A DNA stretch of 64,000 nucleotides from Thiotrichales bacterium (GTDB lineage: Bacteria; Pseudomonadota; Gammaproteobacteria; Francisellales; CACEW01), in NCBI GenBank assembly GCA_947478525.1, contig CANJVU010000003.1, positions 55,562 to 119,561 on the forward strand, given 5' to 3'. The translations under genes were made by a program, and so were the position numbers. This document shows, piece after piece, positions 1 to 53,399 of this stretch (within the stretch, counting starts at the first letter, position 1; every line of letters starts with the position of its first letter). The notes under the pieces were generated by a model. That model saw nothing but the letters and a program-made list of their open reading frames with translations. It had not been told where the DNA came from and made no database searches.

Positions 1-537
1 TGTTTTTGGGTATAGCTTTTGATCCTTGTTGGATAATTTCAGATGCTTGTAAAGCAAATCATTTTTGTTTTTATCACTGACCTTTGGCAATAGTATAAGG
101 GACTCACAGCCAGCAGTCAGTGAATATGCAGATTGTAAATAATGTCCTGGAATTTTACTGTCAAACAGACCAAGCGTCGCATAGATACTCCCTGGCTCTA
201 CCATTCTAAACGGAATGGTATGCGTAAAGCTTTGGGTAAAAACCTCAAAAGCATTATGTGTTACTATGCCTGTTGGACAACCCCTCCAAGGATATTGCAA
301 CAGATCTCTAATTTCAATTGGAACAGATGTGTCATGATGTAATTTCAAAACCCCATCAATTGGAAAAAAGAAATCTCCTTTAATCGTCATCGGTGACATA
401 TAGGGAAATTGTGCCTTAATTAATGGCAAAGTTCCAGCATTTGGTATGTCATCTATAATTTGTGATAACGTAGGGTTGAGTTTGGCTACAACCTTTCTTG
501 CTTCAGTCCATGTGATGATTTTGGTTTTTAAATTCAT
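1..537 (-). CDS. hypothetical protein, N-terminal part only (ORF continues past the left edge of the window)
   Basis: ATG at 537-535 on the minus strand opens a frame with no stop down to position 1 (179 codons, MNLKTKIITWTEARKVVAKLNPTLSQIIDD...). It is absent from the ORF track because no stop lies inside the window. No motif recognised. Confidence 0.4.
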   Translation of the reverse strand, partial: MNLKTKIITWTEARKVVAKLNPTLSQIIDDIPNAGTLPLIKAQFPYMSPMTIKGDFFFPIDGVLKLHHDTSVPIEIRDLLQYPWRGCPTGIVTHNAFEVFTQSFTHTIPFRMVEPGSIYATLGLFDSKIPGHYLQSAYSLTAGCESLILLPKVSDKNKNDLLYKHLKLSNKDQKLYPKT

Positions 538-656
538 TCAATATTTCACCTGCTTGGTGATTTATCTTAGCATTATAAAGGAAATTTTGCAGTGTAAATT
601 CATTTGCATTCGCAAATTTTTTTACAAATTTTAAGTTGGTAGAATACATCTGAACC

Positions 657-935
657 ATGAAAATAACAGGAATCATAACCATGAAATCAGCACGTAATTT
701 AAAATCGAAGAATATTGCTCGTATTATCTTAATCGAGCAACATTTGGAAAAACGCCAGATCACGATTACTGTCACCTATGATAACAACCGCGTGATTTCG
801 GGTACGCCATTTAAACTTTCGCAATGTGGAAAATTGATTCAAGACTTATCGCGTCAAGATGTTATTACGTTGGGGACTTTCCTGGCGATTCAGCAGCAGG
901 ATTGGATGGATACCAAAATCGCGGATTTGAAGTAA
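657..935 (+). CDS. small hypothetical protein (92 aa), paralog of the next ORF
   Basis: ORF track. Shares a pattern with ORF 982-1260 (ITITVTYDNNRVISGTPFKL vs IEVTAMDIAGKVIVSSPRQL, then L..FLA). No clear SD; the internal ATG at 681 is an alternative start. Confidence 0.4.
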   Translation: MKITGIITMKSARNLKSKNIARIILIEQHLEKRQITITVTYDNNRVISGTPFKLSQCGKLIQDLSRQDVITLGTFLAIQQQDWMDTKIADLK

Positions 936-981
936 GACTATTTGGAGGGGGAAACCAAATAAACCAATAAGGGAGCATGTT

Positions 982-1260
982 ATGGCTTTAGCATCTGAGA
1001 TAAAACAAAGTGTGTTGTTACAGGAACGCCAATATTTTTATGATGACGGACATGAAATTGAAGTCACAGCGATGGATATTGCCGGCAAGGTGATTGTAAG
1101 TTCGCCGCGTCAATTGATGAACAGGCGTCGGGTGACGGCGCATATGAACAAGGCGCATTTATTGCGGTTGAGCTTCTTGGCGCACACGGAACGAATGCAG
1201 ACCCATGCACAAAAACTTCTGGATTCTCGCGTTAAAAGAACTGGCCGTAGCAGGCAGTGA
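982..1260 (+). CDS. small hypothetical protein (92 aa), paralog of the previous ORF
   Basis: ORF track. A good SD (AAGGGAG) lies 7 nt upstream of the ATG. Same length and motif pattern as ORF 657-935, with a basic C-terminal tail. Confidence 0.45.
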   Translation: MALASEIKQSVLLQERQYFYDDGHEIEVTAMDIAGKVIVSSPRQLMNRRRVTAHMNKAHLLRLSFLAHTERMQTHAQKLLDSRVKRTGRSRQ

Positions 1261-1666
1261 AGTAGCGTTGAGGGCGTGATGCTGAGTGTATGCGATGCCT
1301 CGTGTTACTCAAAGTCACGCCTCATCAGCGTTAACTTATAAATAAAGTGCACAAGGGCGCAATATTCGGTGCGTAAAGGTCGAGGAGGAGAAGACCCGAT
1401 AAGCGCCGTAGCAGGTACGCCCTTGATGCTGTGAGAACTTTACCATAAAAAACCTTATGAGTGCAAGTGACTTTTTAATTTTTTTAATTGTCATCGCTGC
1501 CACTACTCTGTCTTAGGTTGCGCAGGAGTTGGAACGTAAGCAAATTCATAAAAAACGTAGGTAGTGCTGCCTGGTGCAACCACAGTATTTTATTGAATAT
1601 GGCAACTGGTTTTACCCGAAATTATTGGCGGTTCAGCAGGCTAAAGGTGGTGATGGTTTGAGCGTT

Positions 1667-2176
1667 TTATAAATCAATGCAAGAGAGTATTGTTGTTACA
1701 AGTTCATCAGGAGAAGCTTGATCCGCATCTATTGTTACGGTTGCAGTTTCCTGATACCAGAGAGTGCGTTCGGTTTGCAAGCGTGTCAAAACACCAACTT
1801 TATCAGGTGTCATTAGTAAAGGACGGGTTGTATCGCCTTCAGTGCGTTGCAGTTGAGTAGCCACCGATACTTTTAAATAAATCACGGTGCTGTGTTGGGA
1901 AAGTAGGTGTCGATTTTTCGGCGTTTTAATGATGCCGCCTCCTGTCGATAATACCATGTCCTCAGAAGGGTGCGAGAAAAAATGTTGTAGTGCTTTGGTT
2001 TCATGCGCTCTAAAAAACGGTTCGCCTTGAGCGGCAAATAGCTGGGAAATAAGCATGCCAGTTTCGCTTTCAATCCATTGATCTGTATCATAAAAAGGGT
2101 AGCAAAGCACTGCGGAAAGCTTTTTACCGATGGTGGTTTTGCCTGAGGCCATGGCGCCAACTAATGTGATTTTCAT
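1667..2176 (-). CDS. aroK: shikimate kinase
   Basis: Walker A GAMASGKTTIGKKLS directly after MKITLV. I placed the start at the internal ATG 2176 (SD GAGGT upstream) rather than the ORF-track 2233, which would overlap aroE. Lies 5 nt downstream of aroE. Confidence 0.85.
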   Translation of the reverse strand: MKITLVGAMASGKTTIGKKLSAVLCYPFYDTDQWIESETGMLISQLFAAQGEPFFRAHETKALQHFFSHPSEDMVLSTGGGIIKTPKNRHLLSQHSTVIYLKVSVATQLQRTEGDTTRPLLMTPDKVGVLTRLQTERTLWYQETATVTIDADQASPDELVTTILSCIDL

Positions 2177-2181
2177 AGAGG

Positions 2182-3039
2182 TTACCTCAAGGTGCCGAGA
2201 ACCAGCGCTGTTATTGGTTTTTTGCCGGTCCATAATTCAAAGGCGACCGCCGCTTGTTCTACCAACATGCCAATACCATCATGAATTTTTTTAACGCTAC
2301 GGCTGTGTGCCCAGGTCATGATTTCAGTGGGTTTGGTGGGGCTGTATTTTAAATCGTAGACCAGTGCATCAGCAGCTAAAATAACAGAATCAGGAATGGG
2401 TACCATCGTATCTTTTAACGAACTGCCATCGATGATTATATCAAACGTACTGTCCGCCAAGGTATCATAGCCGCATCCATGAAGGGTTACGGTATCTGTA
2501 GCAAAACGTTTGGCCAATGCTTCTGCTTTTGCAATGGTACGGTTGGCAATGGTAATGTTGGCGGGGTTTTGCGCCACTAAAGGTCCTAAAATGCCGCTGA
2601 CTGCGCCACCTGCGCCGGTAATTAAAATACGTTTGCCAGCGAGCTCATAACCAATATTCTCTGTAACATCACGAATAAAGCCTATGCCATCGGTATTGTC
2701 AGCCCTAATGGTGCCATCGTCATTAAAAACAAAAGTATTCGCCGCTTGCGCTTGTACAGCGCGTTCAGAGCGGTAGGTAGCGATTGCAAAGGCATTTTCT
2801 TTATAGGGCACGGTGATGTTACATCCGTAAAAGCCAGTGGCTTGTAATTCGGTAATTTTAGCTTCAAACGTCTCATCGCCCACATCCTGAATGGTGTAAT
2901 CCACGTCAATGCCCAGCGCTTTGCCAAATGCGCTGTGAATGGTGGGAGATTTACTGTAGCTGATGTTTTTACCCGTGACGGCGAGTTTGTAATGGTGAGG
3001 TGCGGCAGCGAAAGGTAACGGGTTGTGTGGCACCAACAA
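2182..3039 (-). CDS. aroE: shikimate 5-dehydrogenase
   Basis: SKSPTIHSAFG substrate motif, ITGAGGAVSG NADP-binding loop, length 285 aa. Confidence 0.9.
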   Translation of the reverse strand: MLVPHNPLPFAAAPHHYKLAVTGKNISYSKSPTIHSAFGKALGIDVDYTIQDVGDETFEAKITELQATGFYGCNITVPYKENAFAIATYRSERAVQAQAANTFVFNDDGTIRADNTDGIGFIRDVTENIGYELAGKRILITGAGGAVSGILGPLVAQNPANITIANRTIAKAEALAKRFATDTVTLHGCGYDTLADSTFDIIIDGSSLKDTMVPIPDSVILAADALVYDLKYSPTKPTEIMTWAHSRSVKKIHDGIGMLVEQAAVAFELWTGKKPITALVLGTLR

Positions 3040-3327
3040 TCTCCTAGTTGAAATTTATAAGTATCATCATCGCAGATTTTAGAAGAGAGTGTCAACCCCG
3101 CAAGAACGCGAGGCATTTTCCATATTTTACAATGATCCAGCTTTTCCTGTAGATGGTGAAACGTTAGAAGAAGCAAAAAAAACTCTCGATCTTCAGATGA
3201 TGATTTTATTAGGAGTGCTTGATGCGTTGCAAGAAATGGTGGCGAAAGAGTTATTTCGATTTGCTGCATAAATTGGCGAGAAGTAGACCGCGCCACTGGT
3301 GGCCGCACGGGATAAACAAGCGGTTTT

Positions 3328-4488
3328 TTAATTATCCCAAAACTTCCACCATGGATGCTCAATCACTGGTGCCCAGACTTGTTTTAGTGTTTGAGTTGCT
3401 GGGTCATATTTATAAACCAGAATGCCGTTTTGATCAGCTTGTGCTATGACTAACACATGTGCTGATGGAGAAGTGTCGATGGCTTGGTCGCGGAGAAAAG
3501 CATTTTGTGAGTCATTCATTGGAAGAGGTTGCGGTGCATTGGGGTTATTTGAGATCAGTAAAGGTAAATAAATAGGGTTCATTGTGTAATAGCTATAATC
3601 AACACGCTGAATTAATGTGGTTTTTCCATTTAAATCATAAAGCGCAGCAAATGGAAAATAACAATCTGGTATTCCAGCGTAGAAAACTAAGAAGTGTGTT
3701 TTATCAATAAATTTCATGGTAGTGATGCCATGAGCACAATTTTGATAGTTTTCTGGTTCGTTTGGCAATTGTTCTGGAATAGCAAAGAAATGTTGGCAGG
3801 CTGTTCCATCCATTGCGCACTTGAAAAATTGAGTTTTTAAATCGCCACTCAAAATTATTTTACTGTCTGGGCTTATGGTTGCAAAAGTTTGACCATCGTT
3901 TTTTTGTAATTCTTGCATTTTCATGGTTGGCAGATACCATACGCGAACAAATTCATCGCTGGAACCAATTAAATATTGATCATCTGACGATAATGTTAAA
4001 TTAAAGAGCTTCCCATTGCCTTCAAAGCTTTCACGGTATGCTGTATAAAATTTAGTTTCTTTGCTATCTACAATGCCATACATATTGTAATCGGCATCAG
4101 AGGCGTAATATTGTTGTAACTTGGAAGTCATCAACTCACCATAGCTGGCAAAGGAAGGCTTGAGAGTTTTAATAATTTGACCATCCGTATTTTCTACATA
4201 GACAGTGTTATCAGTATTGCTTTGATACATGAAGTCGTTGGTATTTTTGATAAAATAAGCGCTGTACACGTTTGCTTTTCTCGCCACTACTTCGTAAGTG
4301 TGATCTTTTAAATTCCAAAGTACAATATGCTGATAAAGATCTGAGGTGACTGCGTAGTTGCCATCGGTTGAAATACTCAAAATCATGATTTCTGGTTTCA
4401 TGTAGTCCGGTACAGAATTTTTGTCATCTGAATTAGAGCAGCCACTCAGCAGCAATAAGGTTAATAAAATCAAACTTTGTTTAATCAT
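3328..4488 (-). CDS. lipoprotein with WD40-like beta-propeller repeats, a candidate immunity protein for the upstream VgrG-hydrolase
   Basis: MIKQSLILLTLLLLSGC signal peptide with lipobox. Repeated blade-like units (GNYAVTSDLYQHIVLWNL; DQYLIGSSDEFVRVWYL; DSKIILSGDLKT). The ATG at 4488 overlaps the stop of the VgrG gene (ATGATTAA). The ORF-track start 4512 is less likely. Confidence 0.7.
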   Translation of the reverse strand: MIKQSLILLTLLLLSGCSNSDDKNSVPDYMKPEIMILSISTDGNYAVTSDLYQHIVLWNLKDHTYEVVARKANVYSAYFIKNTNDFMYQSNTDNTVYVENTDGQIIKTLKPSFASYGELMTSKLQQYYASDADYNMYGIVDSKETKFYTAYRESFEGNGKLFNLTLSSDDQYLIGSSDEFVRVWYLPTMKMQELQKNDGQTFATISPDSKIILSGDLKTQFFKCAMDGTACQHFFAIPEQLPNEPENYQNCAHGITTMKFIDKTHFLVFYAGIPDCYFPFAALYDLNGKTTLIQRVDYSYYTMNPIYLPLLISNNPNAPQPLPMNDSQNAFLRDQAIDTSPSAHVLVIAQADQNGILVYKYDPATQTLKQVWAPVIEHPWWKFWDN

Positions 4489-7400
4489 CTGTGTTAACCT
4501 TGCTGAGATCATAATTGCCGAATGATTTGAAGCTCCAGGTGGAGCGTCCCATCAATTGATCCACGTAAATTTTCTGGAATAATTCAGAGTTTGGAATTTC
4601 CATACCATTGTGATCAGGCAATAGTTGTTTTCCAGTTACAGGATCAACTTGATTTACACCATGGTATTTCGGATCGTTTGCAAAAGGTGTTTTTATATCA
4701 ACTCCCCCATACCCCATCGCCGTAGCAGGAGATGCTTTTGGCGTTAGCAGTGCGGTAAGGACAATAGTTGCCAAAGCATTGGCATCTGGGTCGCGGAAGT
4801 TGATGTCGTTGCTTTCGTACCACTTCAGGCAGGGTTCGCTGCTTTTGAAGTAATCAAGGGCGGCGTTATAGCCTTTAAGGCCGGTATATTGGATTTGGGC
4901 GAAGGTTTTGGCGAGGTGGAAGCCGACGCTTAGGAGGTTGAAGGCGTCAGGGGCGGTGGTGCGCAGGCGTTCCTGTTGTTGTATTAGCGTTGCCGGCAGC
5001 TGGTTGGAGCTTTTGGTTTGAATGTCAGTATAGGCTTGATACTCAGTCCGCCATTGTTGGTAATAAGTAGTACAGATGCTGGCGGTGTCGCCTTTGAGGA
5101 AGTAGCTCAGCGGGTACGTTAGCAAATTTGCTAGGTGGTAAATGCTGTACATTTTGGCCTGGGTTTGAATGGCCGGTAAAGCATAATTATCAATGATAAA
5201 GGCGGTTTCGGCGATGGCGGCGAAGATGGTGCCGGCAGCTGGGTCGGCCATTTTGCCTTTGAGCACGTCGAGCAAGTCGTCGTCAGAGGGGCCATCCATA
5301 ATGCCTTTGAGCCAGCAGTAGGTGATGGTGGCACCGTTAGGAAGTTTAAGCCAGTCTTCTGTTAATGAGACGCCGGGGAGCAATGAGATTGCGTCATAAG
5401 CGGCAATCCCAAAGCTGGCCATCAGGTCTTTGCCTGGGCTTAATACACCGTAAAAAAAGTCATGCATCACTTGAACGGTCCATTCTACCGGTTTATTTTG
5501 GGGCTTGTTGGTTTGGATGCTGCCCAAAATATTATCATTGTTGGAGTAAAGCACCGTAAACGCCTTCGCACCTTGTTGCGCGGTGAGGTAATTGTATTCA
5601 TAGTTGATGGTTTGGCCATTGATAACTATCGGGAAGTATTGTCGTGGAGTGGTATTGAAGCAGTCGTCAGGAATGGCGGCGTCCCACATAAAGACGTGGT
5701 CGATCGCTGTTCCTTGTGCGCCGCATTGGTTGAGGACGTTCATTAAGACTCCATTGCCGAGCGAGTGGCAGACGACATTAACCGTCAGCCCCGCAGATTT
5801 CAATTGTTGGATTATCGCAACAATTTTAGTGGCAGGGAAGTGGGTCATTGCAGTGGCGGCCATATAATCGTATGCCTGAGTCGGGTTGCCTTGCCAGGCG
5901 CAAGCGAGCAGGCGGTTGAAGTTGCTATAGTCTTTACCATCAAAACCAGCGGCCAGGTTAAGGTTTTGCTCCATATGCACCAGCCACTTGTGGGCTTCGT
6001 TGCCGTTGAGCGCGGTTTCTTTATCGGGCGTGAGGGTTGCGGGGTCGTAGGCGCTGCCATATTGCGATTTCATGATGCGGTCGTCGCGATAAATGGCAGA
6101 ACAGGGCAGGTCGGCGCTGGGGGTTAAGGTGTTGACCGTAATGGGTGCGCTGGGCATGCCATAATTGAACGACAACGGTGTGATGGTTTTTTGAGTGACG
6201 GCCAGCCCTTGCGCGAATTGGCCGAACTTAACATTATAGCCGTGGATAAAGAGTGTAGCGTTATTGCCGTTGGCTTTGAAGTATTCAATCATCCATGGTT
6301 GCAGCACTTGATTGCCGGGTTTCCATTCATCATTAAACTCGGTTTTGTCAAAGGGAAGGGTTTTACCGTTGGCGTCAACCGGTGGTTTGGATTCATCATC
6401 GAAATAGGACTTCAGCGTTTCATAAACCGGCTGATCTGCTCCCAGGCTGCTTTGCCAGCAGTCATGACGGAAGTTAAGCAGCATCGCCGGGGGCAGCAGG
6501 GTGAGTTGGATTTGGTACTGCGGTTTGCCTTCGCTATCTTTGCTTAAGGTCAACTGCGAGGGCGTAATCACCAGCGTATCGGTCGGGTAACCCAGCGATT
6601 GCTGATTCATCGCAATAATCGACACCGACTGGCCGTTTAATACGTCTTTGCCGATAAGCGTGATGGTGATGCTTTCGCTGTTATTGACCAGAGGGAATTG
6701 GAGTTTTTGTTGAGCGAAGGGCAGTTTGCTGAGGGTTTGGCTTGTGCTGCTGACGTTGAGGGTAAATTGATTCAGCAATTCGGCCATAAAGGAGTGTTGC
6801 TCCGGCGTGTCTTGGGTAAACTGATCAACTAGGGTAATTTCGAGCGAGGCATTGACGGTGGAAAGTGGGTTGATGGCACCGGGAGTGGGTGCCATGGGTG
6901 CAGGCACGCTCGCCGGGTTCGCGCTGGCGCCGGTGTTAATGCTTATATTGCCGGTGTGGGTATAATGGTCAGCGCCGTCTTGCATGTTGCCAACGGTGGT
7001 GATGGAAGTGTTATGTTGTTGCGTTAATGTACCGATGTTTTCGCTCAAGGTTCCGCTTTGTACGTTATGGTTGTTAATGGTGTACTGGCCTTGATTGATC
7101 TGCTGCGACATCGTGGTGGCATTGTGCAGATTGGTGGTGTGTAACAGGCGGGTGGTGCGCGTATCGGTATGGGTATCTTCACGGGTTTTGCCAACCTGGG
7201 TAGTTTCCGATAATGGCGTTTGCACGTTCATAGTATAAGCATTGTAAACATAGCCAACGGTATCGGATTGATAGGTGTCGAGTTGATTGACGTAGATATA
7301 ACCGGTGGTGTCGGCATTCACCGTATCGAGGGTGTTTTTAGCGGTATGCGTGGTGTTGATGGTGGCGGAGTTTTGTGTGGTGGTAATTTCGGCGTCTTGT

Positions 7401-9247
7401 ACCAGAATTTGATGTTGATGAGTGTCAACATGGCTCGTTTCTAAAACATGTAAGCCATTGTCCTTCATGTCAGCTTGTACCATGTGACGATACGCCGGTG
7501 TGGCGGACTGGTTCGGGTCGGTGGCGTCGCGGTTGCCGATTAAATTAGCCAGACCGCCATCGTGTTGACTGTGGAAATCCCCCTCGGTATAAATAAAATG
7601 GCCTTTGCTGCCATAAACCGAGGGATAGGTTTGGTCTTCGTTGACCGGATCACCCTGGCGCATATAGCTGCTTTGGCCGATGTCATTATAATTCGGTACT
7701 TCGGTAATCGTAGCGCTTTTACGGCCGGTGGATTGATTTCGGTCAAAATCACCCTCGTTGATATAGCCGATCCGATTGAGCTTTTTATCTTGCCAGTAAT
7801 GGTTTTGTGCATTTGAAGTTCGCGTCAACGCTGGCATGTTGCTGTGCGTGTTGGCGCCTTCAATAAACGGTCTATCGAGGTCGTCGCTGTGAAAACCAAG
7901 ACTGACTTCGCTGCTTACCGGTAATGGCATATTAACCTGATGGTCTCGGCTTTGGACAGGGTTGAGTATGCGCAATTGCGCCATTTCGCCGCGACCCGTC
8001 AGATACCAGCTTTCTGGCGGTGCAATTTTATAGGCCCCTTTGCCATCAAGTGCATGATCGTCACCGCTGGCATCACCGGCCTGTGACAGAATATGTGCAC
8101 CCACCAATATGCCGGATTGTGTGCGAAAAACAGGTAAGTCACGATATATGATATCATTATCGAGTAACGCCATATTGTTGTGGGTATTGCGCAATTGATT
8201 AAAGCGATGGCGGTCAAACTCCAGTGTTACGGTAATTGAGGTAATCAGGTAATTCTTGGAGAAGGGGTGGTTGGTAAGCGCGATGCGATCGCCCGCAAAT
8301 AAGATACCGCGGCCACCAGCGGGTAGCGCGTTGCGTTGCGCATAATAAGATTGCGCTGCCCATTGCGACCACTGTTCGGCCTCTTTGGGCGAAAGTGCAT
8401 CAAAGCGCCATAATGCTTCACGTTTACTGGGGTAATGGGAATCTACCATTGTGACTGAGTTAATGGTTTGTTCAGGATAGTCTGGATTGTATCCTGTTAC
8501 GCGGACGCGGTCAGGTCCAAGCATTTGGCCCGTGAGTGCAATGCGAGTAACTGAGGGAGCCAGGCTTAGATGTTCTTGATCTGCTGGATGAAAAGGCGCT
8601 TGGGTGATTGATGCAACTTGATACAGGCGGTCACTGATCACCAGTGGGCAGGAGGCGCGATGATGGTCGAAGTAAAAGCTAAAGCCATGTTGACTAAGCG
8701 CGCGTTTTAGGAATTGATAGGTGGTTTCGTCGTGTTGAATCCAGTTGGCTTTTTGGGGATAGGTGGATTCCATCTGACTTAACGCAAGGGACAGTGCTTC
8801 TGGGTCAGCCAGCACCGGCGTTTGGCCCTCTTGAATATTGAGCAATACTTCCTGGCATAATTCGACCAGTGTCAGATCATTATATAAATGGGACTTGTGT
8901 TCTCGATTAAGGAGTGCCAAGGTTGGTTCTATGGTCAGTTGATAATGAAAGGTTCCATCTTTTAAGGTTTTGATGATTTTGGTGTCTTGTATTATGCCAT
9001 TAAAATAACAGGGGGCAGTATCGCCGGAGATTTTTAAGCAGATGCCGCTATACGCCGCAGTATCAAAAAAAGCAGGAGGTTGAGAGGTGATGAGATCCAC
9101 GTTTAGCGTAAATAATTCCGATATATCTGAGCGATAAGAGACGCCGTGCACTTGATGGTGATCAAGTCCAGAGAGCGTGAGTTCGCAGGCAATATTAACC
9201 GTCAGAGTGGGCATGGGGTTGCTAGGGTTTGTTTTGGTTCTGGTCAA
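4481..9247 (-). CDS. vgrG: evolved VgrG: gp27/gp5-like spike protein fused to a C-terminal alpha/beta-hydrolase (lipase/esterase-like) domain
   Basis: The N-terminus has the VgrG layout, including HSDDLDRPFIEG (aa 453-464) where the canonical GDPDRP motif sits. A Thr/Asn/Gln/His-rich stretch (aa ~600-778) and a Pro-rich linker ASVPAPMAPTPG follow. Then come FIHGYN (aa ~1000), VNVVCHSLGNG (Ser1162, codon 5762-5764), YSNNDNILG and VMHDFF. The ORF-track start is TTG 9247; the ATG at 9214 (MPTLTVNI...) is an alternative. Confidence 0.85.
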   Translation of the reverse strand: MTRTKTNPSNPMPTLTVNIACELTLSGLDHHQVHGVSYRSDISELFTLNVDLITSQPPAFFDTAAYSGICLKISGDTAPCYFNGIIQDTKIIKTLKDGTFHYQLTIEPTLALLNREHKSHLYNDLTLVELCQEVLLNIQEGQTPVLADPEALSLALSQMESTYPQKANWIQHDETTYQFLKRALSQHGFSFYFDHHRASCPLVISDRLYQVASITQAPFHPADQEHLSLAPSVTRIALTGQMLGPDRVRVTGYNPDYPEQTINSVTMVDSHYPSKREALWRFDALSPKEAEQWSQWAAQSYYAQRNALPAGGRGILFAGDRIALTNHPFSKNYLITSITVTLEFDRHRFNQLRNTHNNMALLDNDIIYRDLPVFRTQSGILVGAHILSQAGDASGDDHALDGKGAYKIAPPESWYLTGRGEMAQLRILNPVQSRDHQVNMPLPVSSEVSLGFHSDDLDRPFIEGANTHSNMPALTRTSNAQNHYWQDKKLNRIGYINEGDFDRNQSTGRKSATITEVPNYNDIGQSSYMRQGDPVNEDQTYPSVYGSKGHFIYTEGDFHSQHDGGLANLIGNRDATDPNQSATPAYRHMVQADMKDNGLHVLETSHVDTHQHQILVQDAEITTTQNSATINTTHTAKNTLDTVNADTTGYIYVNQLDTYQSDTVGYVYNAYTMNVQTPLSETTQVGKTREDTHTDTRTTRLLHTTNLHNATTMSQQINQGQYTINNHNVQSGTLSENIGTLTQQHNTSITTVGNMQDGADHYTHTGNISINTGASANPASVPAPMAPTPGAINPLSTVNASLEITLVDQFTQDTPEQHSFMAELLNQFTLNVSSTSQTLSKLPFAQQKLQFPLVNNSESITITLIGKDVLNGQSVSIIAMNQQSLGYPTDTLVITPSQLTLSKDSEGKPQYQIQLTLLPPAMLLNFRHDCWQSSLGADQPVYETLKSYFDDESKPPVDANGKTLPFDKTEFNDEWKPGNQVLQPWMIEYFKANGNNATLFIHGYNVKFGQFAQGLAVTQKTITPLSFNYGMPSAPITVNTLTPSADLPCSAIYRDDRIMKSQYGSAYDPATLTPDKETALNGNEAHKWLVHMEQNLNLAAGFDGKDYSNFNRLLACAWQGNPTQAYDYMAATAMTHFPATKIVAIIQQLKSAGLTVNVVCHSLGNGVLMNVLNQCGAQGTAIDHVFMWDAAIPDDCFNTTPRQYFPIVINGQTINYEYNYLTAQQGAKAFTVLYSNNDNILGSIQTNKPQNKPVEWTVQVMHDFFYGVLSPGKDLMASFGIAAYDAISLLPGVSLTEDWLKLPNGATITYCWLKGIMDGPSDDDLLDVLKGKMADPAAGTIFAAIAETAFIIDNYALPAIQTQAKMYSIYHLANLLTYPLSYFLKGDTASICTTYYQQWRTEYQAYTDIQTKSSNQLPATLIQQQERLRTTAPDAFNLLSVGFHLAKTFAQIQYTGLKGYNAALDYFKSSEPCLKWYESNDINFRDPDANALATIVLTALLTPKASPATAMGYGGVDIKTPFANDPKYHGVNQVDPVTGKQLLPDHNGMEIPNSELFQKIYVDQLMGRSTWSFKSFGNYDLSKVNTDD

Positions 9248-9382
9248 TATAGCACTTAAAACAAAAATTGTCTATAGTTTGTTCGTAAAGACTCTATTTA
9301 ATTCTAATTATTCGATATTTTGATTGATTATTGATAAGTGCGATGATATAGTAATCTCACTCGAAGTAAGAGATCATATGTC

Positions 9383-11107
9383 ATGAGTCAATCATTATTA
9401 ATCATCCGTGCAATGAATAATACTTATGAGTTTGTCGTTTCCCGTTTTGATTATCACGCGGCGCTATCGAGTTTGTATACATTGCAGTTGAGCTGTCGTT
9501 TGGATCAAGTGCCAGATAGCTTAATGCAGGACATTCAGCAGCACCCGCAAGCGTCGTTTTCGTATGGGAGTGCTGATCAAGTCAGGGCGTATAAAATTCA
9601 CGGTGTGATTGTGGCGTCGGAAATGATTTATGATCAAGGGAGAAAATGTTACTTCTTGGCCGTGACTCTTCGCCCTAAAGTCGCGTTATTAGCGGATTCC
9701 TTGGTGGTGCAGATCGCACCGAATAAGAGTGTGCAGGAATTGCTGGGTAACCTATTGGATCAGGCATCCCAGTACATTGGCCCACTGGACTATCAGTTGG
9801 TGATCTCTCATTCAATGCTGACTAACCCGTTGTCAGGGTTGGAGATTCACTATGGACAATCCGATTTTGATTATTTGCAACACCTGTGTCGTTATGGGTT
9901 GTTCTTTTATTTTGTACAAGGGGATAATCAGGAAAAACTCATCATTACTGATCAACTGGAAAGTACGCCGGTGCATCCTGATCCCATTCAGCTGGATTTG
10001 CATCTGCGTAGCAAGCCACAGGTGGATAATCCTGTTTTTAACTGGATGTCACAAGCCTCGCAAGCGCAATCGCATCAAGTAAAGGTGCGGTATTATGATG
10101 CCTTGCATTCGCAACAGGCGTTAAGTCAAATGATGGCCCAGGTTGAGGGTAATGAATATGCGGTGGAAGGATTGATTGTCGATTTGGATGGTCAGGTAAA
10201 GTTGAATCAAGTATTGACGGCCAGCGTTAATGCGCAGCAGTCGGTGCAGGAGTTGCGGGGCAATTATAGCGCACTTAATGTCGGTGAGCGTATTCGTTTT
10301 CAAGATCAGCGCCAGTTGGTTTATTCAGTGGTGTTGCAGGGTAATTTTAGTCAGAGTCGCTGGACCTATGATGCCAGGGTTATGATCATGCCAGAAGGTA
10401 AGGTTTATTATGCCATTGCCCCCTGTTACGCTAAAAAACCATTGCCTGGGAATCTTTGTGCTGCAGTGATGCAGGCGACTGAGCAGGTTAACCCCAATGG
10501 CTATTTTAGAGCGCAAGTGACGCCTGCACTGACAGAGCAAAATGCGGTTAGCCCAGATGTGTTGTTGCGCGACATTCAAGGGACCAGTACACAGGCGGGA
10601 GGTTCGTCGCATAGCAATACCTACGAAGGTGAAATTGTGTTAACTACGCGCAATGGTCAGTCATCAGATATTCTGATTGTGGGTGGTTTAAGTAATGCGA
10701 AATATCCTGCCAATGTCACCACGCAAAATGAACAAGACACTGCTTTGAAAAATCAAGGGGGGTTGGAGGTGAGATTGCGTCGTCAACGCGATAATCAGCC
10801 GCATGCGCATATTCATATGGGTGTGACCGATGACAGTCAGGCGCAAAGCTTTGTGCGGGTTGGTGGTCACAAGGAGCCTGGTGAAGATCCTCAATATGGT
10901 ATGCAGGAAGGTTCCACCGGGTTTGCCAAAAAAGTCACCGGCAAGCATGCGTTGAAGCAAGTTGGCCAGGATATTCAAAATCCGGTGTATCGTTTTCAGC
11001 ATCAGCAAACCGACGAAGGTAAGCATGATATTAAGGAGCAAATCAACACCGACAGCTATTCGCAGCGTTATTACACTACACCATTGTCGGGAGATACTGG
11101 TTCGTGA
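9383..11107 (+). CDS. vgrG: short VgrG-like protein (574 aa) with a degenerate gp5 motif and no long beta-helix
   Basis: VgrG-type N-terminus (YEFVVSRFDYHAALSSLYTLQLSC; HGVIVASEMIYDQGRKCYFLAVTLRPKVALL; YLQHLCRYGLFFYF). The GDPDRP position reads SSDILIVGG. Ends in a charged, Gln-rich tail. Divergent from the large vgrG across a 135-bp AT-rich spacer. Confidence 0.65.
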   Translation: MSQSLLIIRAMNNTYEFVVSRFDYHAALSSLYTLQLSCRLDQVPDSLMQDIQQHPQASFSYGSADQVRAYKIHGVIVASEMIYDQGRKCYFLAVTLRPKVALLADSLVVQIAPNKSVQELLGNLLDQASQYIGPLDYQLVISHSMLTNPLSGLEIHYGQSDFDYLQHLCRYGLFFYFVQGDNQEKLIITDQLESTPVHPDPIQLDLHLRSKPQVDNPVFNWMSQASQAQSHQVKVRYYDALHSQQALSQMMAQVEGNEYAVEGLIVDLDGQVKLNQVLTASVNAQQSVQELRGNYSALNVGERIRFQDQRQLVYSVVLQGNFSQSRWTYDARVMIMPEGKVYYAIAPCYAKKPLPGNLCAAVMQATEQVNPNGYFRAQVTPALTEQNAVSPDVLLRDIQGTSTQAGGSSHSNTYEGEIVLTTRNGQSSDILIVGGLSNAKYPANVTTQNEQDTALKNQGGLEVRLRRQRDNQPHAHIHMGVTDDSQAQSFVRVGGHKEPGEDPQYGMQEGSTGFAKKVTGKHALKQVGQDIQNPVYRFQHQQTDEGKHDIKEQINTDSYSQRYYTTPLSGDTGS

Positions 11108-11120
11108 GTGGATAATGGGA

Positions 11121-11148
11121 TTGACTTTGCCGAAAAACGCTATACACT
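11121..11148 (+). promoter_or_regulatory. candidate sigma70 promoter for the first OMP gene
   Basis: TTGACT (11121-11126), a 16-nt spacer, then TACACT (11143-11148), about 30 nt upstream of ATG 11180. Sequence match only. Confidence 0.3.
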
Positions 11149-11179
11149 GCCGCGTAATGTGTTTAAAAATTGGGTCACT

Positions 11180-11890
11180 ATGCGTAAAATAATTTTTTCT
11201 GCTGTACTGCTTGGCGCAATGGCTTCAAGTGCCTTTGCGGATCAAACCCCAGCGGTTGCGTCGATGGCGCCGCCGGCTGCAGCGGTTGTAACTCCAGCGG
11301 CTGAGCCAATCAGTGAATTGCCAGTGCTGCAGCATCCGCTTTATTTTGGGTTGATTACGGGTTTGGGTGATACGGACTGGGATAAATTGGTGGCAGAGGA
11401 TGGTTCTTCAATTAATGCAACACCCAGTTCAGCTTCTGGTACTGGAGTATTAGTTGGTGGGTTGGTTGGCTATGATTTAACTCAGTACATTGGGTTTGAG
11501 GCTCAGTATATTCGCTATCCTGATTCGAGTGTTAATTTTGCCACAGATGCTCAGGAAAATCCCTTTCTTAATGCTCCGGCTCACATGACTTCTAAGACAG
11601 ATTATGCCGCCATGATTGCTAAGGCATCAGTTCCTTTTGATGACAATCAATTCTCTGGTTTTGGTGAAATTGGTTATGCTTTAGAAATGCGTGACGATGT
11701 GATGTCTGGGAATATTCATGATTTTCGCCCCACCTTTGGTTTTGGAATGAGTTATTTGCGATTAGAGCATTGGACCTTGACGCTTGCATTTAACTATACG
11801 CCTGGTGTTGGAACTGCTACTGTTGATACTGCGAATAATTATATTCCTTATGTATATTCAGGCCAGTTTATTGTTGCTTACCGTATTTAA
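11180..11890 (+). CDS. outer-membrane beta-barrel protein (OMP_b-brl/OmpA-like barrel family), paralog 1
   Basis: Signal peptide MRKIIFSAVLLGAMASSAFA-DQ. Alternating hydrophobic beta-strand pattern with Gly/aromatic-rich strands (VGGLVGYDL, FEAQYIRYP, FGFGMSYL). I moved the start to ATG 11180 from the ORF-track 11108. Confidence 0.7.
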   Translation: MRKIIFSAVLLGAMASSAFADQTPAVASMAPPAAAVVTPAAEPISELPVLQHPLYFGLITGLGDTDWDKLVAEDGSSINATPSSASGTGVLVGGLVGYDLTQYIGFEAQYIRYPDSSVNFATDAQENPFLNAPAHMTSKTDYAAMIAKASVPFDDNQFSGFGEIGYALEMRDDVMSGNIHDFRPTFGFGMSYLRLEHWTLTLAFNYTPGVGTATVDTANNYIPYVYSGQFIVAYRI

Positions 11891-11899
11891 GGATTCTTT

Positions 11900-12583
11900 A
11901 TGAAAAAGTTTGTCTGTCCGTTGCTGTTGATTGCGGGTATATTTTTTTCTGCCATGAGCTTCGCGGATCAAGGTCAATCATTACCATTGAAGCAACAATT
12001 TTTGTACGCGGGCTTGATAGGTGGTTATGGCAACGATGATTGGAGTAGTATGGTTGTATCGTACAATAACGTAGCCGATATCGCCACCTATAACTCTAAT
12101 CCTGCCGGTGTCGATGGTAAGGGGGCCTTATTTGGTTTAAATGCAGGTTATCAGTTTAATGCGCATGTTGCCGTTGAGGCGGAATATGTGAAAATGCCTA
12201 CTGCGAATGTTTCAATGAAGTATTTTGGCTCTGCTTCTCTTGAGCGGAATATTAGTTCTCAGCTTAGCTATGCTGCAATAACATTAAAATTGATGGCGCC
12301 GATTTTCAATAGTAATTTTACCTTCTTTGCTGAAGCGGGTCCTGCTTATGAATGGCGGAAGGATTCTGCTTCATGGGATTTGTTAGATGAATATCCAGCG
12401 GTAAGCGTAGGTACCTGGGCGCCATTATTTGGCGGTGGTTTTATGTATCGAATGGATCAGCATTGGCAGAGTGAGCTCGCTTTCCAATATTTGCCTGGTA
12501 CTGGGAAATCAGTGGGAGACCCAATGAATTATTACATACCTGAAATCTATGCTGGTCAGTTTAAGTTGGATTACATTTTCTAG
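11900..12583 (+). CDS. outer-membrane beta-barrel protein, paralog 2
   Basis: Signal peptide MKKFVCPLLLIAGIFFSAMSFA-DQ and a C-terminal ...LDYIF with terminal Phe typical of OMPs. Collinear motifs with paralog 1 (LYAGLIGGYGNDDW / LYFGLITGLGDTDW; NYYIPEIYAGQF / NYIPYVYSGQF). Confidence 0.75.
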   Translation: MKKFVCPLLLIAGIFFSAMSFADQGQSLPLKQQFLYAGLIGGYGNDDWSSMVVSYNNVADIATYNSNPAGVDGKGALFGLNAGYQFNAHVAVEAEYVKMPTANVSMKYFGSASLERNISSQLSYAAITLKLMAPIFNSNFTFFAEAGPAYEWRKDSASWDLLDEYPAVSVGTWAPLFGGGFMYRMDQHWQSELAFQYLPGTGKSVGDPMNYYIPEIYAGQFKLDYIF

Positions 12584-51229: not shown

Positions 51230-51952
51230 ATGTTTAGAGTAGTGGGATTGTTTGGTTTGGCGTTGCTTGTGCTGTCGCCATTGTCGGGTTGTCAGGCCAT
51301 TTCGACCGAAGTGGAATACCGTAATATGATTGTGCAAACTAAAATGAACCAATCATTATTCTTAAGTCCTGTAGCTAACCAAGATCGATTGATTTACGTT
51401 CAGGTTACTAATACTTCTAATGAACAAACCATTGATCTGAAATCCGCGTTGGTGCAAGATTTGCAACAAAATGGCTGGACGGTAACGGATGATCTCAGTA
51501 AAGCGCAACAAATGTTGCAGGTCAATATATTGCAGGCGGGTGTTACTACGCCGGAAGCAATGAATAATTTATTGCAAGAAGGTTTTGGTGCAGGGATGGT
51601 CGGTGGCGGCTTGGTGGCTGCAACCGGCGGTAGCATGCCTGATGCTGCTGTTGCAGGGGTTGCGGTTGGCTTGAGTGCGACAGTTGCAGATGCTATGGTA
51701 CAAGATATTACCGTGTCCCTAACCACCGATGTGCAAATTTTGCTACGTTTGCCACCCAATGAAAAAGTGCCCGTTAATGCTACGCCAAAACCTGGCGATC
51801 CAACGGTTACGACTGATTATGTTACCGGCACTTCCTGGTTACAGTATCAAAGACGTGTCATATCCAGTGCCAATCAGGCAAACTTGAAATTCAAAGACGC
51901 GCAGCCGCAAATGACCTCTGAATTGGCGGGTAGTATTGCAGGTATTTTCTAA
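51230..51952 (+). CDS. traT: TraT-like complement-resistance/surface-exclusion outer-membrane lipoprotein
   Basis: LSGC lipobox. Collinear with F-plasmid TraT as I recall it, in both the N-terminal region and the C-terminus (YQRRVISSANQANLKFKDAQP...LAGSIAGIF). Confidence 0.8.
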   Translation: MFRVVGLFGLALLVLSPLSGCQAISTEVEYRNMIVQTKMNQSLFLSPVANQDRLIYVQVTNTSNEQTIDLKSALVQDLQQNGWTVTDDLSKAQQMLQVNILQAGVTTPEAMNNLLQEGFGAGMVGGGLVAATGGSMPDAAVAGVAVGLSATVADAMVQDITVSLTTDVQILLRLPPNEKVPVNATPKPGDPTVTTDYVTGTSWLQYQRRVISSANQANLKFKDAQPQMTSELAGSIAGIF

Positions 51953-53399
51953 AGTGTCTTGGGCGATCACTCTCTCTGGTCTCATCATTATTGGCCATAC
52001 TTGTGGCGTGATTGCTGCAGGTCATGCGTTATTAACCAAGCGTGATCCTCGCGCCGCGTTTCTGTGGACCATTTTCTGTTTAATTTTGCCGTTTGGTTTT
52101 TTGATTTATCTGGTGTTTGGTATTAATAAACTCACGGGTGTCCACCGACGTTGGGATTCTCAAGGACTACACCACCTCAAAGCGATAGAGTCGGAGTTTG
52201 AAGTAACGGCAGAAACGACCTTTGAGCATGCGGTGTATCATCTTAAAGCATTTCATGATTTAAAAAAAACTGGCGAGCGTATTTGCAAAGGCCGTATCAT
52301 GAGCGGATGCCAGGTTAGTGTGTTGTATGATGGTACGCAGGCCTATCCACAGATGATTGCAGCGATTGAACAGGCAAAAAATAGCATATACCTTTCAACT
52401 TATATTTTTGGCACGACTGAAATTGGCAAACGTTTTATTGAAGCATTAATCGCGGCAAAAGACCGTGGTGTTGAAGTGAAAGTGTTAATTGATGGGGTTG
52501 GTTCGCTGTATTCATTCCCAACGGCATATCGACAATTAAAGCGTAAAGGCGTGAATGTTGCTTTATATCTATCTCCGTTTCGCAGTTGGTATAACCTGGT
52601 TCATATGAACTTACGTAATCACCGTAAATTACTGGTCATTGATGGCACTTTTGGGTTTACCGGTGGCATGAACATCCATCAAGAAAATATGGGGAAGGGC
52701 AGTGAGCCTGCGCCTATTCGTGATCTGCACTTTAGGGTTGATGGTCCAATCATTGGGTTTTTACAGAATGTTTTTTTAAAGGCGTGGTATTTTTCTGTGA
52801 AAAAAGATCCAGTGAAAGAAGTGATTTACTATGATGATCAACCCAAAGGCAATGCGTTATGCCGGGGTATCGCTTCAGGCCCGCATCATCAATTCCCTCA
52901 AATTGAGCGGATGTTAATTGCTGCCATTAATAGCGCAACGGACAACATCCGCATTATGACCCCTTATTTTATTGTCAGTGGACCGTTGGCCACAGCGCTC
53001 ACCGCGGCATCACAACGTGGTGTTGAGGTTGAGATTATTATGCCGGGCAGTAATAATTTATCTTTTGTAAAGGGCGCTTGCGAAGCCATTTTACCCGGGT
53101 TGCTACAATATGGACTTAAATTTTATTATCGCCGAGGCAATTTTGCGCATACTAAAATTTTCCTCATTGACGATTTCTGCTCGTTTATTGGTTCTGCCAA
53201 TATTGATGTGCGAAGTTTGTATTTGAACTTTGAGTTTAATCTGGAAATCTATGATTATGTGTTGACCAATACGCTGATTAATCATTTTGAAACGGTAAAA
53301 AAAGACGCTGTACCCGTAACAAAAGAGTATTTGCAAGGTCATCATTTCTTGATTCGTTTTAGAAACGCTGTCTTGGCATTATTCGCACCCTATCTATAA
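51936..53399 (+). CDS. cls: cardiolipin synthase (PLD superfamily)
   Basis: Two N-terminal TM segments and two HKD motifs (HRKLLVIDG; HTKIFLIDD). ATG 51936 overlaps the traT end by 17 nt. GTG 51954 is an alternative start. Confidence 0.9.
   Translation: MQVFSKVSWAITLSGLIIIGHTCGVIAAGHALLTKRDPRAAFLWTIFCLILPFGFLIYLVFGINKLTGVHRRWDSQGLHHLKAIESEFEVTAETTFEHAVYHLKAFHDLKKTGERICKGRIMSGCQVSVLYDGTQAYPQMIAAIEQAKNSIYLSTYIFGTTEIGKRFIEALIAAKDRGVEVKVLIDGVGSLYSFPTAYRQLKRKGVNVALYLSPFRSWYNLVHMNLRNHRKLLVIDGTFGFTGGMNIHQENMGKGSEPAPIRDLHFRVDGPIIGFLQNVFLKAWYFSVKKDPVKEVIYYDDQPKGNALCRGIASGPHHQFPQIERMLIAAINSATDNIRIMTPYFIVSGPLATALTAASQRGVEVEIIMPGSNNLSFVKGACEAILPGLLQYGLKFYYRRGNFAHTKIFLIDDFCSFIGSANIDVRSLYLNFEFNLEIYDYVLTNTLINHFETVKKDAVPVTKEYLQGHHFLIRFRNAVLALFAPYL

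What the first reader, a model, noticed from the sequence alone, without database searches (positions are those of the whole stretch)
3328..9247. Evolved VgrG with a C-terminal alpha/beta-hydrolase domain, translationally coupled to a beta-propeller lipoprotein (candidate effector-immunity pair)
Seen in sequence: a 1588-aa ORF whose first ~470 aa have the VgrG gp27/gp5 layout. DDLDRPFIEG sits where GDPDRP normally is. A Thr/Asn/Gln/His-rich stretch (aa ~600-778, nt ~6914-7450) follows and is compatible with a beta-helical spike. Next come a Pro-rich linker (ASVPAPMAPTPGAINP) and a ~200-aa spacer. After that the order is FIHGYN ... VNVVCHSLGNG (Ser codon 5762-5764) ... YSNNDNILG ... VMHDFF. That is the oxyanion loop, nucleophile elbow, Asp and His order of an alpha/beta hydrolase, and the xHSxG elbow recalls DUF900/PGAP1-type lipases. 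The stop of this gene overlaps the ATG of the next ORF (ATGATTAA at 4481-4488). That ORF has a lipobox (LLLLSGC) and WD40-like blades. Established knowledge: T6SS Tle lipases act in the periplasm, and periplasmic or lipoprotein Tli proteins encoded immediately downstream neutralise them. VgrGs with enzymatic C-terminal extensions are the known specialised effectors. Inference: this is a VgrG-borne lipase/esterase toxin with a cognate immunity lipoprotein. I cannot assign the hydrolase to Tle1-5. A ~385-aa beta-propeller would also be an unusual immunity fold.
Basis: partly seen in the sequence, partly recalled or inferred. Interest (0 to 1): 0.72.

Follow-up and report, generated by a model that had tools for sequence, protein, structure and literature searches.

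The report
VgrG-fused lipase-like toxin with propeller immunity
An uncultured gammaproteobacterium encodes a type VI secretion spike protein fused to a lipase-like toxin domain, followed by a periplasmic beta-propeller lipoprotein that is almost certainly its antidote; this toxin/antidote pairing recurs in many bacteria but I found no description of it.

Summary
Gene 4481-9214(-) has a divergent VgrG core (aa 30-477), a Thr/Asn/Gln/His-rich spike extension, a Pro-rich linker, a conserved ~165-aa linker domain and a ~630-aa alpha/beta-hydrolase domain. That domain passes Pfam DUF900's threshold.

One correction. The catalytic His is not in VMHDFF (H1262, kept in 4% of relatives). It is the invariant H1546. 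The conserved set is H1002-G1003, S1162, D1238 and H1546, with a ~290-aa helical insert between Asp and His.

The AlphaFold2 model (pLDDT 79.6, pTM 0.84) matches only lipases and phospholipases A, and only weakly. The domain fails the Tle3 model and gave no hit to other Tle models.

About 280 cluster representatives share the domain. They are fused to VgrG or PAAR, or sit beside vgrG, or beside hcp plus DUF4123.

The downstream gene 3328-4488(-) is a WD40 propeller with a lipobox. A homologue follows 27 of 34 related effector genes, often with a 4-nt overlap and sometimes in tandem copies. It co-diverges with the effector (r=0.88).

This is a new variant of the Tle/Tli kind. Enzyme activity, immunity and a T6SS in this genome are untested.

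The parts
4481..9214 (-). vgrG-effector fusion gene. It is 1577 aa from ATG 9214. The mechanical ORF runs to TTG 9247 (1588 aa), and residue numbers in this report use the 1588-aa numbering.
   Evidence: gene called at 1577 aa in independent assemblies; the promoter-like site 9274-9246 ends next to the TTG.
7817..9160 (-). VgrG core (gp27-like hub and gp5-like part), aa 30-477. Includes DDLDRPFIEG at aa 455-464.
   Evidence: Pfam Phage_GPD, aa 41-342, E 1.3e-29. TIGR03361, aa 30-473, E 5e-29 but below its cutoff. PDB VgrG chains 7q5p, 2p5z, 6sjl and 4mtk.
6914..7450 (-). Thr/Asn/Gln/His-rich stretch, aa 600-778. Presumed beta-helical spike extension.
   Evidence: Composition. Collinear in relatives L010 and L038. 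The fold is inferred; no Pfam hit.
6866..6913 (-). Pro-rich linker ASVPAPMAPTPGAINP, aa 779-794.
6368..6865 (-). Conserved linker domain of unknown fold between the spike and the hydrolase, aa 795-960.
   Evidence: Shared with relatives P0005, P0008, P0009, P0012 and P0023 and with L002, L003, L009, L011 and L035. No Pfam hit.
4484..6367 (-). Effector domain, aa 961-1588: alpha/beta hydrolase (DUF900-like) with a helical insert.
   Evidence: DUF900 29.3 bits against a cutoff of 20.5. 281 cluster representatives. AF2 model pLDDT 79.6, pTM 0.84. Foldseek best matches are LCAT, LPLA2, pancreatic lipase RP2 and Tle3, all weak.
6233..6250 (-). FIHGYN oxyanion-loop motif. H1002 and G1003 are invariant.
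5762..5764 (-). Ser1162, the nucleophile in C-H-S-L-G. The family consensus is AHSLG.
   Evidence: Kept in 99% of 118 relatives. It follows strand 1155-1161 in the model.
5534..5536 (-). Asp1238, the predicted acid of the triad.
   Evidence: Kept in 99%. It follows strand 1230-1234 in the model.
4748..5476 (-). Mostly helical insert, aa ~1258-1500, between Asp and His. Presumed cap or membrane-binding module. It contains the non-conserved VMHDFF.
   Evidence: Secondary structure of the model. Homologous in 84 of 150 relatives. Amphipathic or hydrophobic segments at 1275-1293 and 1334-1352.
4610..4612 (-). His1546, the predicted catalytic His (PDHNGMEIP).
   Evidence: Kept in 100% of 118 relatives. 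It follows the last core strand, 1528-1532.
3328..4488 (-). Candidate immunity gene: a 386-aa WD40 beta-propeller lipoprotein (MIKQSLILLTLLLLSG|C). Its ATG lies 5 nt before the vgrG stop codon, so the two genes share 8 nt.
   Evidence: Homologues lie directly downstream of related effectors. Co-divergence.
9246..9274 (-). Promoter-like site TAGACA-17-TATATT upstream of ATG 9214.
   Evidence: This is a consensus match only.
9383..11107 (+). Second, divergently transcribed vgrG-like gene (574 aa, no effector domain).
   Evidence: Phage_GPD E 1.8e-20. 23% identical to the first VgrG core.

Best explanation
This is a specialised T6SS spike protein. A divergent VgrG core carries, after a spike extension and a linker domain, a ~630-aa serine hydrolase of the alpha/beta fold.

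The predicted catalytic residues are Ser1162, Asp1238 and His1546, with the H1002-G1003 oxyanion loop. A ~290-aa helical module is inserted between the Asp and the His.

Inferred mechanism: the spike delivers the domain into the periplasm of a neighbouring Gram-negative cell. There it cleaves ester bonds of membrane lipids, like a phospholipase A, and damages the envelope. The overlapping downstream gene makes a WD40 beta-propeller lipoprotein that is exported to the producer's periplasm. It binds and blocks incoming toxin from sibling cells.

Shown here: the domain architecture, the conservation of the catalytic residues, the fold class, the association of the family with T6SS carriers, and the conserved effector-propeller gene pair.

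Inferred only: the lipid substrate, the toxicity, the periplasmic site of action, and the immunity function.
For: - VgrG core.
- DUF900 above its threshold.
- 281 cluster representatives share the domain, 120 of them with E<1e-30.
- H1002, G1003, S1162, D1238 and H1546 are kept in 99-100% of 118 relatives.
- The AF2 model has pLDDT 79.6 and pTM 0.84. Ser, Asp and His each follow a core strand in canonical order.
- The best Foldseek matches are all lipid esterases: LCAT, lysosomal PLA2, pancreatic lipase RP2, lipoprotein lipase, Tle3 and monoacylglycerol lipases.
- A profile search finds pancreatic lipase RP2 and B. subtilis LipA at the nucleophile elbow.
- Carriers among 37 long relatives: Phage_GPD 33, Phage_base_V 15, DUF2345 10, PAAR 8, Tox-PAAR-like 1.
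- In the split form a separate vgrG lies directly upstream.
- In Actinobacillus equuli the gene order is hcp, DUF4123 adaptor, effector, propeller, propeller.
- A propeller homologue lies within -65 to +256 nt downstream of 27 of 34 effector genes. All have a lipobox or a signal/anchor sequence, and some loci hold 2-3 tandem copies.
- Effector and propeller pairwise identities correlate: r=0.88, and 0 of 2000 Mantel permutations reached that value.
Against: - No T6SS core gene (tssA-M, hcp, clpV, PAAR) was recognised among the window genes scanned; the 35-44 kb genes were not scanned. The rest of the genome could not be reached.
- The VgrG scores fall below the NCBIfam cutoffs.
- No structural match reaches E<1e-3, and TM-scores are low. 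The substrate is therefore a guess from fold neighbours.
- I had no model coordinates, so the spatial closeness of Ser, Asp and His was not checked.
- 7 of 34 related effector genes have no propeller downstream.
- Co-divergence of two linked genes can reflect joint inheritance alone.
Confidence: 0.72

Rival explanations
1. The same delivery system, but the hydrolase acts on a non-phospholipid ester or amide in the envelope. Candidates are lipoprotein acyl chains, lipid A, O-acetylated peptidoglycan or a peptide bond. Alternatively it works as an acyltransferase like LCAT or GCAT.
For: All fold matches are weak. The top matches, LCAT and LPLA2, are acyltransferases as well as phospholipases. 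DUF900 has no known substrate (PMC11878206).
Against: Every fold and profile neighbour is a lipid esterase. The AHSLG elbow and the IHG[YF] loop resemble those of pancreatic and Bacillus lipases.
Confidence: 0.12
2. The propeller is not the immunity protein, or not only that. It is a chaperone, activator or loading factor needed for effector function, as reported for E. cloacae Tli and suggested for P. mirabilis PefE.
For: Cytosolic Tli is needed to activate Tle in E. cloacae, and pefE, a predicted propeller, is needed for PefD activity (bioRxiv 10.1101/2023.03.28.534661; PMC5714391). Tight translational coupling fits co-folding.
Against: All 35 propeller homologues carry an N-terminal lipobox or a signal/anchor sequence, which places them outside the cytoplasm where the spike is assembled. 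Tandem extra copies (L027, L005) are typical of immunity arrays.
Confidence: 0.1
3. The toxin is aimed at eukaryotic host membranes, such as those of amoebae or animal cells, rather than at bacteria.
For: Relatives occur in Coxiellaceae and Coxiella-like MAGs and in host-associated Pasteurellaceae. Some T6SS lipases act on both kingdoms (established knowledge: PldA and PldB).
Against: A conserved periplasmic partner protein makes sense only if the toxin threatens the bacterial envelope.
Confidence: 0.06

Closest known systems
Tle1-Tle4 T6SS phospholipase effectors with periplasmic Tli immunity proteins (Russell et al. 2013, as summarised in bioRxiv 10.1101/2023.03.28.534661)
   Same: An alpha/beta-hydrolase serine esterase with an xSxG elbow. 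It is delivered with or on VgrG or PAAR. The immunity gene lies immediately downstream and encodes an exported protein, often a lipoprotein. The hydrolase core has extra cap or membrane modules, as in Tle1 and Tle4.
   Different: The Pfam scan (E up to 10) returned only a sub-threshold Tle3 hit and no other Tle-family model. The elbow is A/C-H-S-L-G, not GxSxG. A ~290-aa helical insert separates Asp from His. The immunity protein is a WD40 propeller, which I found reported for no Tli.
Tle3/Tli3 of adherent-invasive E. coli (PDB 8boz; Pfam PF24322)
   Same: It is the closest T6SS effector by both tests. The Pfam Tle3 model touches the nucleophile-elbow region, and 2 of 37 relatives reach E 7.8e-7. 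Foldseek lists 8boz.
   Different: The window protein scores 12.3 bits against a cutoff of 27. The Foldseek E-value is 0.14-0.35 with TM-scores about 0.1-0.15. No DUF3274-type C-terminal domain was hit.
Pfam DUF900 (PF05990), alpha/beta hydrolases of unknown function
   Same: The protein passes the gathering threshold (26.5-29.3 bits against 20.5), as do 34 of 37 relatives.
   Different: Only profile positions 7-168 of 232 match. The part of the profile that would hold the His is replaced by the helical insert and a distant His. DUF900 has been described as an alphaproteobacterial family of unknown function (PMC11878206) and as the domain of most archaeal homologues of the bactericidal phospholipase cinquedea (bioRxiv 10.64898/2026.06.10.730825). 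Neither paper links it to T6SS.
PefD/PefE of Proteus mirabilis
   Same: A T6SS effector whose immunity protein is predicted to be a bladed beta-propeller. Specificity maps to variable loops on one face (PMC5714391).
   Different: PefD is a PAAR-fused nuclease (Tox-GHH2) that acts in the cytoplasm. PefE is 320 aa, and the paper does not describe it as an exported lipoprotein. I did not test for sequence relationship.
Specialised ('evolved') VgrGs such as V. cholerae VgrG-3 and P. aeruginosa VgrG2b
   Same: An enzymatic toxin domain is fused to the C-terminus of the spike, and a periplasmic immunity gene lies next to it (PMC6899460 and PMC9620997, listed).
   Different: The toxin domain is different (hydrolase of the DUF900 type). 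The VgrG core is very divergent, and there is an extra conserved linker domain.

Membership tests
VgrG / TssI (T6SS spike) | gp27-like hub domain (Pfam Phage_GPD) | tested here: met
   E 1.3e-29, 103.8 bits against a cutoff of 30.1, aa 41-342.
VgrG / TssI (T6SS spike) | Full-length match to TIGR03361 or TIGR01646 above the curated cutoff | tested here: not met
   101.3 bits against 186.35, and 50.3 bits against 121.8. The alignment does span aa 30-477. This is a divergent VgrG.
VgrG / TssI (T6SS spike) | gp5 OB-fold and beta-helix (Phage_base_V, DUF2345) | tested here: inconclusive
   The window protein has no Pfam hit. 15 and 10 of 37 relatives do. The GDxxxPxIxG column aligns with DDLDRPFIEG.
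VgrG / TssI (T6SS spike) | The genome encodes T6SS core genes (tssA-M, hcp, clpV) | not testable with these tools
   None was recognised among the window genes scanned; the genes between about 35 and 44 kb were not scanned. The flanks could not be reached. The Actinobacillus relative has hcp and DUF4123 next to the effector.
Alpha/beta hydrolase, DUF900 (PF05990) | Score above Pfam's gathering threshold | tested here: met
   26.5 and 29.3 bits against 20.5.
Alpha/beta hydrolase, DUF900 (PF05990) | Ser-Asp-His triad in canonical order, each after a core strand | tested here: met
   S1162, D1238 and H1546 are kept in 99-100% of relatives. Their positions in the AF2 secondary structure fit the canonical order. 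The 3D geometry was not measured.
Tle3 | Match to Pfam Tle3 (PF24322) above its cutoff | tested here: not met
   12.3 bits against 27, E 0.12.
Tle1, Tle2, Tle4 | A hit to any other Tle-family Pfam model, and a GxSxG elbow | tested here: not met
   The scan at E up to 10 listed only DUF900, DUF7379 and Tle3. The elbow is CHSLG, with family consensus AHSLG. The Tle1 and Tle4 structures were not among the 50 Foldseek matches shown.
Tle5 | Dual HxKxxxxD phospholipase D motifs | tested here: not met
   No PLD domain was hit in the effector.
T6SS effector-immunity pair | An adjacent, co-oriented gene that is conserved with the effector and localised to the compartment under attack | tested here: met
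   27 of 34 loci. Export signals in all homologues. r=0.88 co-divergence.
T6SS effector-immunity pair | The partner protein binds and neutralises the toxin | not testable with these tools
   Needs an experiment.

The most novel reading that the evidence does not exclude
This locus represents an undescribed, widespread family of T6SS lipase-like effectors, a de facto 'Tle6'. The family is defined by an AHSLG elbow, a ~290-aa helical module inserted between the catalytic Asp and His, and a dedicated periplasmic WD40 beta-propeller immunity protein. That would be the first propeller-type Tli, and its mode of inhibition may differ from known Tli proteins.
Probability: 0.55. Interest if true: 0.62.

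Novelty: new variant of a known kind. Interest (0 to 1): 0.55.

Why it matters
T6SS lipases are major antibacterial weapons, and only a handful of families (Tle1-5 and a few outliers) have been characterised.

This family has about 280 cluster representatives at 50% identity. It spans uncultured Gammaproteobacteria, Coxiellaceae, Thiotrichales, Desulfuromonadales and cultured Pasteurellaceae (Actinobacillus, Aggregatibacter, Rodentibacter). The Pasteurellaceae members make it tractable in the laboratory.

It would add a new catalytic architecture and a new immunity fold. A WD40 propeller with export signals is an unusual way to inhibit an enzyme. It would also give Pfam DUF900 a biological context.

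Tried and rejected
- The word-indexed search with the whole protein found only the protein itself. The exhaustive search was needed.
- AF2 without an alignment gave an unusable model, pLDDT 35. This cost one of the two prediction jobs, so neither the propeller nor the complex could be modelled.
- The genome scan with the 41-sequence alignment failed because no stretch was conserved enough. It worked with 12 sequences.
- I tried to reach DNA left of the window through aroK. This returned only short contigs that all end near window position ~1000.
- phmmer of the effector part against PDB sequences found nothing. The profile search found only weak hits at the nucleophile elbow.
- The Pfam scan of aa 483-932 gave no family, even at E up to 10.
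- Literature searches for DUF900 or PF05990 with T6SS, for WD40 or propeller immunity to lipases, for Aggregatibacter T6SS effectors and for Tle6-8 found no description of this family.
- I rejected TTG 9247 as the start codon.


Full report
**1. What is in the sequence**

The minus strand holds a 1588-codon ORF at 4481-9247 (from a TTG) and a 394-codon ORF at 3328-4512. Gene callers in independent assemblies start the first gene at ATG 9214 (1577 aa) and the second at ATG 4488 (386 aa).

A promoter-like site, TAGACA-17-TATATT, lies at 9274-9246. Its -10 hexamer ends right next to the TTG, which favours ATG 9214 as the start.

The sequence ATGATTAA at 4488-4481 places the second gene's ATG 5 nt before the first gene's TAA. 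An AAGG lies 9-12 nt upstream of that ATG.

**2. The N-terminal two thirds**

Pfam Phage_GPD matches aa 41-342 (E 1.3e-29). TIGR03361 aligns over aa 30-473 (E 5e-29), but below NCBI's cutoff. The best solved relatives are T6SS VgrG chains. This is a genuine but divergent VgrG.

DDLDRPFIEG aligns with the GDxxxPxIxG column of related VgrGs. The stretch aa 600-778 is 49% Thr, Asn, Gln and His. Its beta-helical nature is inferred only, because no family matched aa 483-932.

After the Pro-rich linker (aa 779-794) comes a stretch of about 165 aa. It is conserved in many relatives and is therefore a domain rather than a spacer.

Two collinear full-length relatives exist in other MAGs: L010 (1719 aa) and L038, from a Thiotrichales MAG. 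The long fusion is therefore not an assembly artefact.

**3. The C-terminal domain**

Pfam DUF900 is matched above its threshold (26.5-29.3 bits against 20.5). The only other hits are sub-threshold, including Tle3 (12.3 bits against 27).

An exhaustive HMMER search with aa 788-1588 found 281 cluster representatives with E up to 0.001. Of these, 120 have E below 1e-30.

In an alignment of 118 effector domains these residues are kept in 99-100%: H1002, G1003, H1161, S1162, G1164, D1238 and H1546.

An AlphaFold2 model built on 33 sequences has pLDDT 79.6 and pTM 0.84. It shows:
- strand 996-1001, followed by the HG loop;
- strand 1155-1161, followed by Ser1162;
- strand 1230-1234, followed by Asp1238;
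- a mostly helical region at about 1258-1500, with low confidence at 1271-1320;
- strand 1528-1532, followed by His1546.

That is the canonical order of an alpha/beta hydrolase, with a ~290-aa insert between the acid and the His. I had no coordinates, so the triad geometry is unmeasured.

Foldseek against the PDB gave no match below E 1e-3. The top of the list is nonetheless uniformly lipid esterases: LCAT (E 5.4e-3, probability 0.99), lysosomal PLA2, pancreatic lipase-related protein 2, lipoprotein lipase, Tle3 (8boz) and monoacylglycerol lipases. A profile search of PDB sequences touched only pancreatic lipase RP2 and Bacillus LipA, at the elbow.

The fold class is established. The lipid substrate is an inference.

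**4. Is the family a T6SS cargo?**

- Of 37 long relatives, 33 carry Phage_GPD, 15 Phage_base_V, 10 DUF2345, 8 a PAAR motif and 1 a PAAR-like domain. 34 hit DUF900 and only 2 hit Tle3.
- Where the effector is a separate gene of 430-600 aa, a vgrG lies directly upstream. This is seen in L015, L016, L022, L028, L031 and L039.
- In Actinobacillus equuli CP103814 the order is hcp (divergent), a DUF4123 adaptor, the effector (705 aa), a propeller (4-nt overlap) and a second propeller.

Fused and split versions of one module, together with PAAR and adaptor versions, are the signature of a polymorphic T6SS effector.

**5. The downstream gene**

The protein has a lipobox (LLLLSG|C) and WD40 similarity: 2ymu at E 1.1e-11, plus several Pfam propeller models.

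I ran phmmer with it against all ORFs of the fetched loci. A homologue of 376-443 aa lies directly downstream of the effector in 27 of the 34 cases where the effector's 3' end and enough flank are present. The gaps range from -65 to +256 nt, and the overlap is often the 4-nt ATGA.

All homologues start with a lipobox or a signal/anchor sequence. L027 has three tandem copies and L005 has two.

Across 19 pairs, the pairwise identities of effector domains and of propellers correlate with r=0.88. None of 2000 Mantel permutations reached that value. Linkage alone could produce this. It does show that the two genes travel as one unit.

Seven loci lack the propeller.

**6. Context**

- Downstream of the pair are aroE and aroK.
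- Upstream, and divergent, is a second vgrG-like gene (574 aa, 23% identical in the core). It is followed by two OmpA-like barrel genes and then secE-nusG-rplKAJL-rpoBC.
- I recognised no other T6SS gene among the window genes I scanned. The genes between about 35 and 44 kb were not scanned. The left flank could not be reached.
- RpoB is at most 83% identical to any other sequence. The nearest named relative (78%) is a 'Gammaproteobacteria bacterium' MAG, GCA_030652335.1, which itself carries a stand-alone member of the effector family, L024.

**7. Comparison with what is known**

The locus works like a Tle/Tli pair on a specialised VgrG. It is not a member of Tle1-5 by any test I could run. 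It differs in the AHSLG-type elbow, the large Asp-His insert and the propeller partner.

The searchable literature does not link DUF900 to T6SS. In 2012 a survey stated that propellers had not yet been seen among immunity proteins (PMC3482391). The one precedent I found is PefE of Proteus mirabilis, a predicted propeller that protects against a nuclease (PMC5714391). Lipases outside Tle1-5 with other immunity folds are known, such as E. cloacae Tle with an ankyrin-repeat Tli. In that system Tli also activates the toxin (bioRxiv 10.1101/2023.03.28.534661). That is why the chaperone reading is kept as a rival.

**8. Verdict**

The finding is a new variant of a known kind. It is of solid interest to T6SS specialists, but it does not upset any concept.

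Noticed in passing
window 9383-12583 (+): A second, short vgrG-like gene (574 aa, no toxin domain) is transcribed divergently from the first. It runs straight into two paralogous OmpA-like 8-strand barrel genes with signal peptides (11108-11890 and 11900-12583), just upstream of secE. I do not know whether the barrels are cargo, immunity or ordinary outer-membrane proteins.
   Followed up: partly
window 3328-4488 versus 4481-9214: The propeller gene has much lower G+C (about 0.36-0.39) than the vgrG-effector gene (about 0.49-0.52) and the neighbouring genes (about 0.45).
   Followed up: no
window 1-1300: An AT-rich stretch (G+C 0.37) with only small ORFs that have no family match (657-935 and 982-1260, both 92 aa). 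Three independent short-read contigs all end here, which suggests a repeat or a hard-to-assemble element at the left edge.
   Followed up: no
L004 (GCA_030644425.1) 1-6671; L030 and L032 (CBDBBL010000006.1); L034: Several MAG contigs hold two or three effector-propeller modules in series. Some have effector genes cut down to their 3' part (168-459 aa) but intact propellers. This looks like the orphan or displaced toxin-tip arrays of polymorphic toxin loci.
   Followed up: partly
L002, L012, L020, L024, L033, L036, L043: Seven related effector genes have no propeller gene downstream. They have other ORFs there, or genes on the opposite strand. These may use a different immunity protein or none.
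   Followed up: no
window 51230-53399 (+): A TraT-family lipoprotein gene (usually plasmid-borne) overlaps the start of a two-HKD phospholipase D / cardiolipin-synthase-like gene.
   Followed up: no
L047 13016-13964: The nearest named relative has HigB-like toxin, HTH and Phd/YefM antitoxin genes just after rpoC. The window has a sugar-nucleotide and glycosyltransferase cluster at that position.
   Followed up: no
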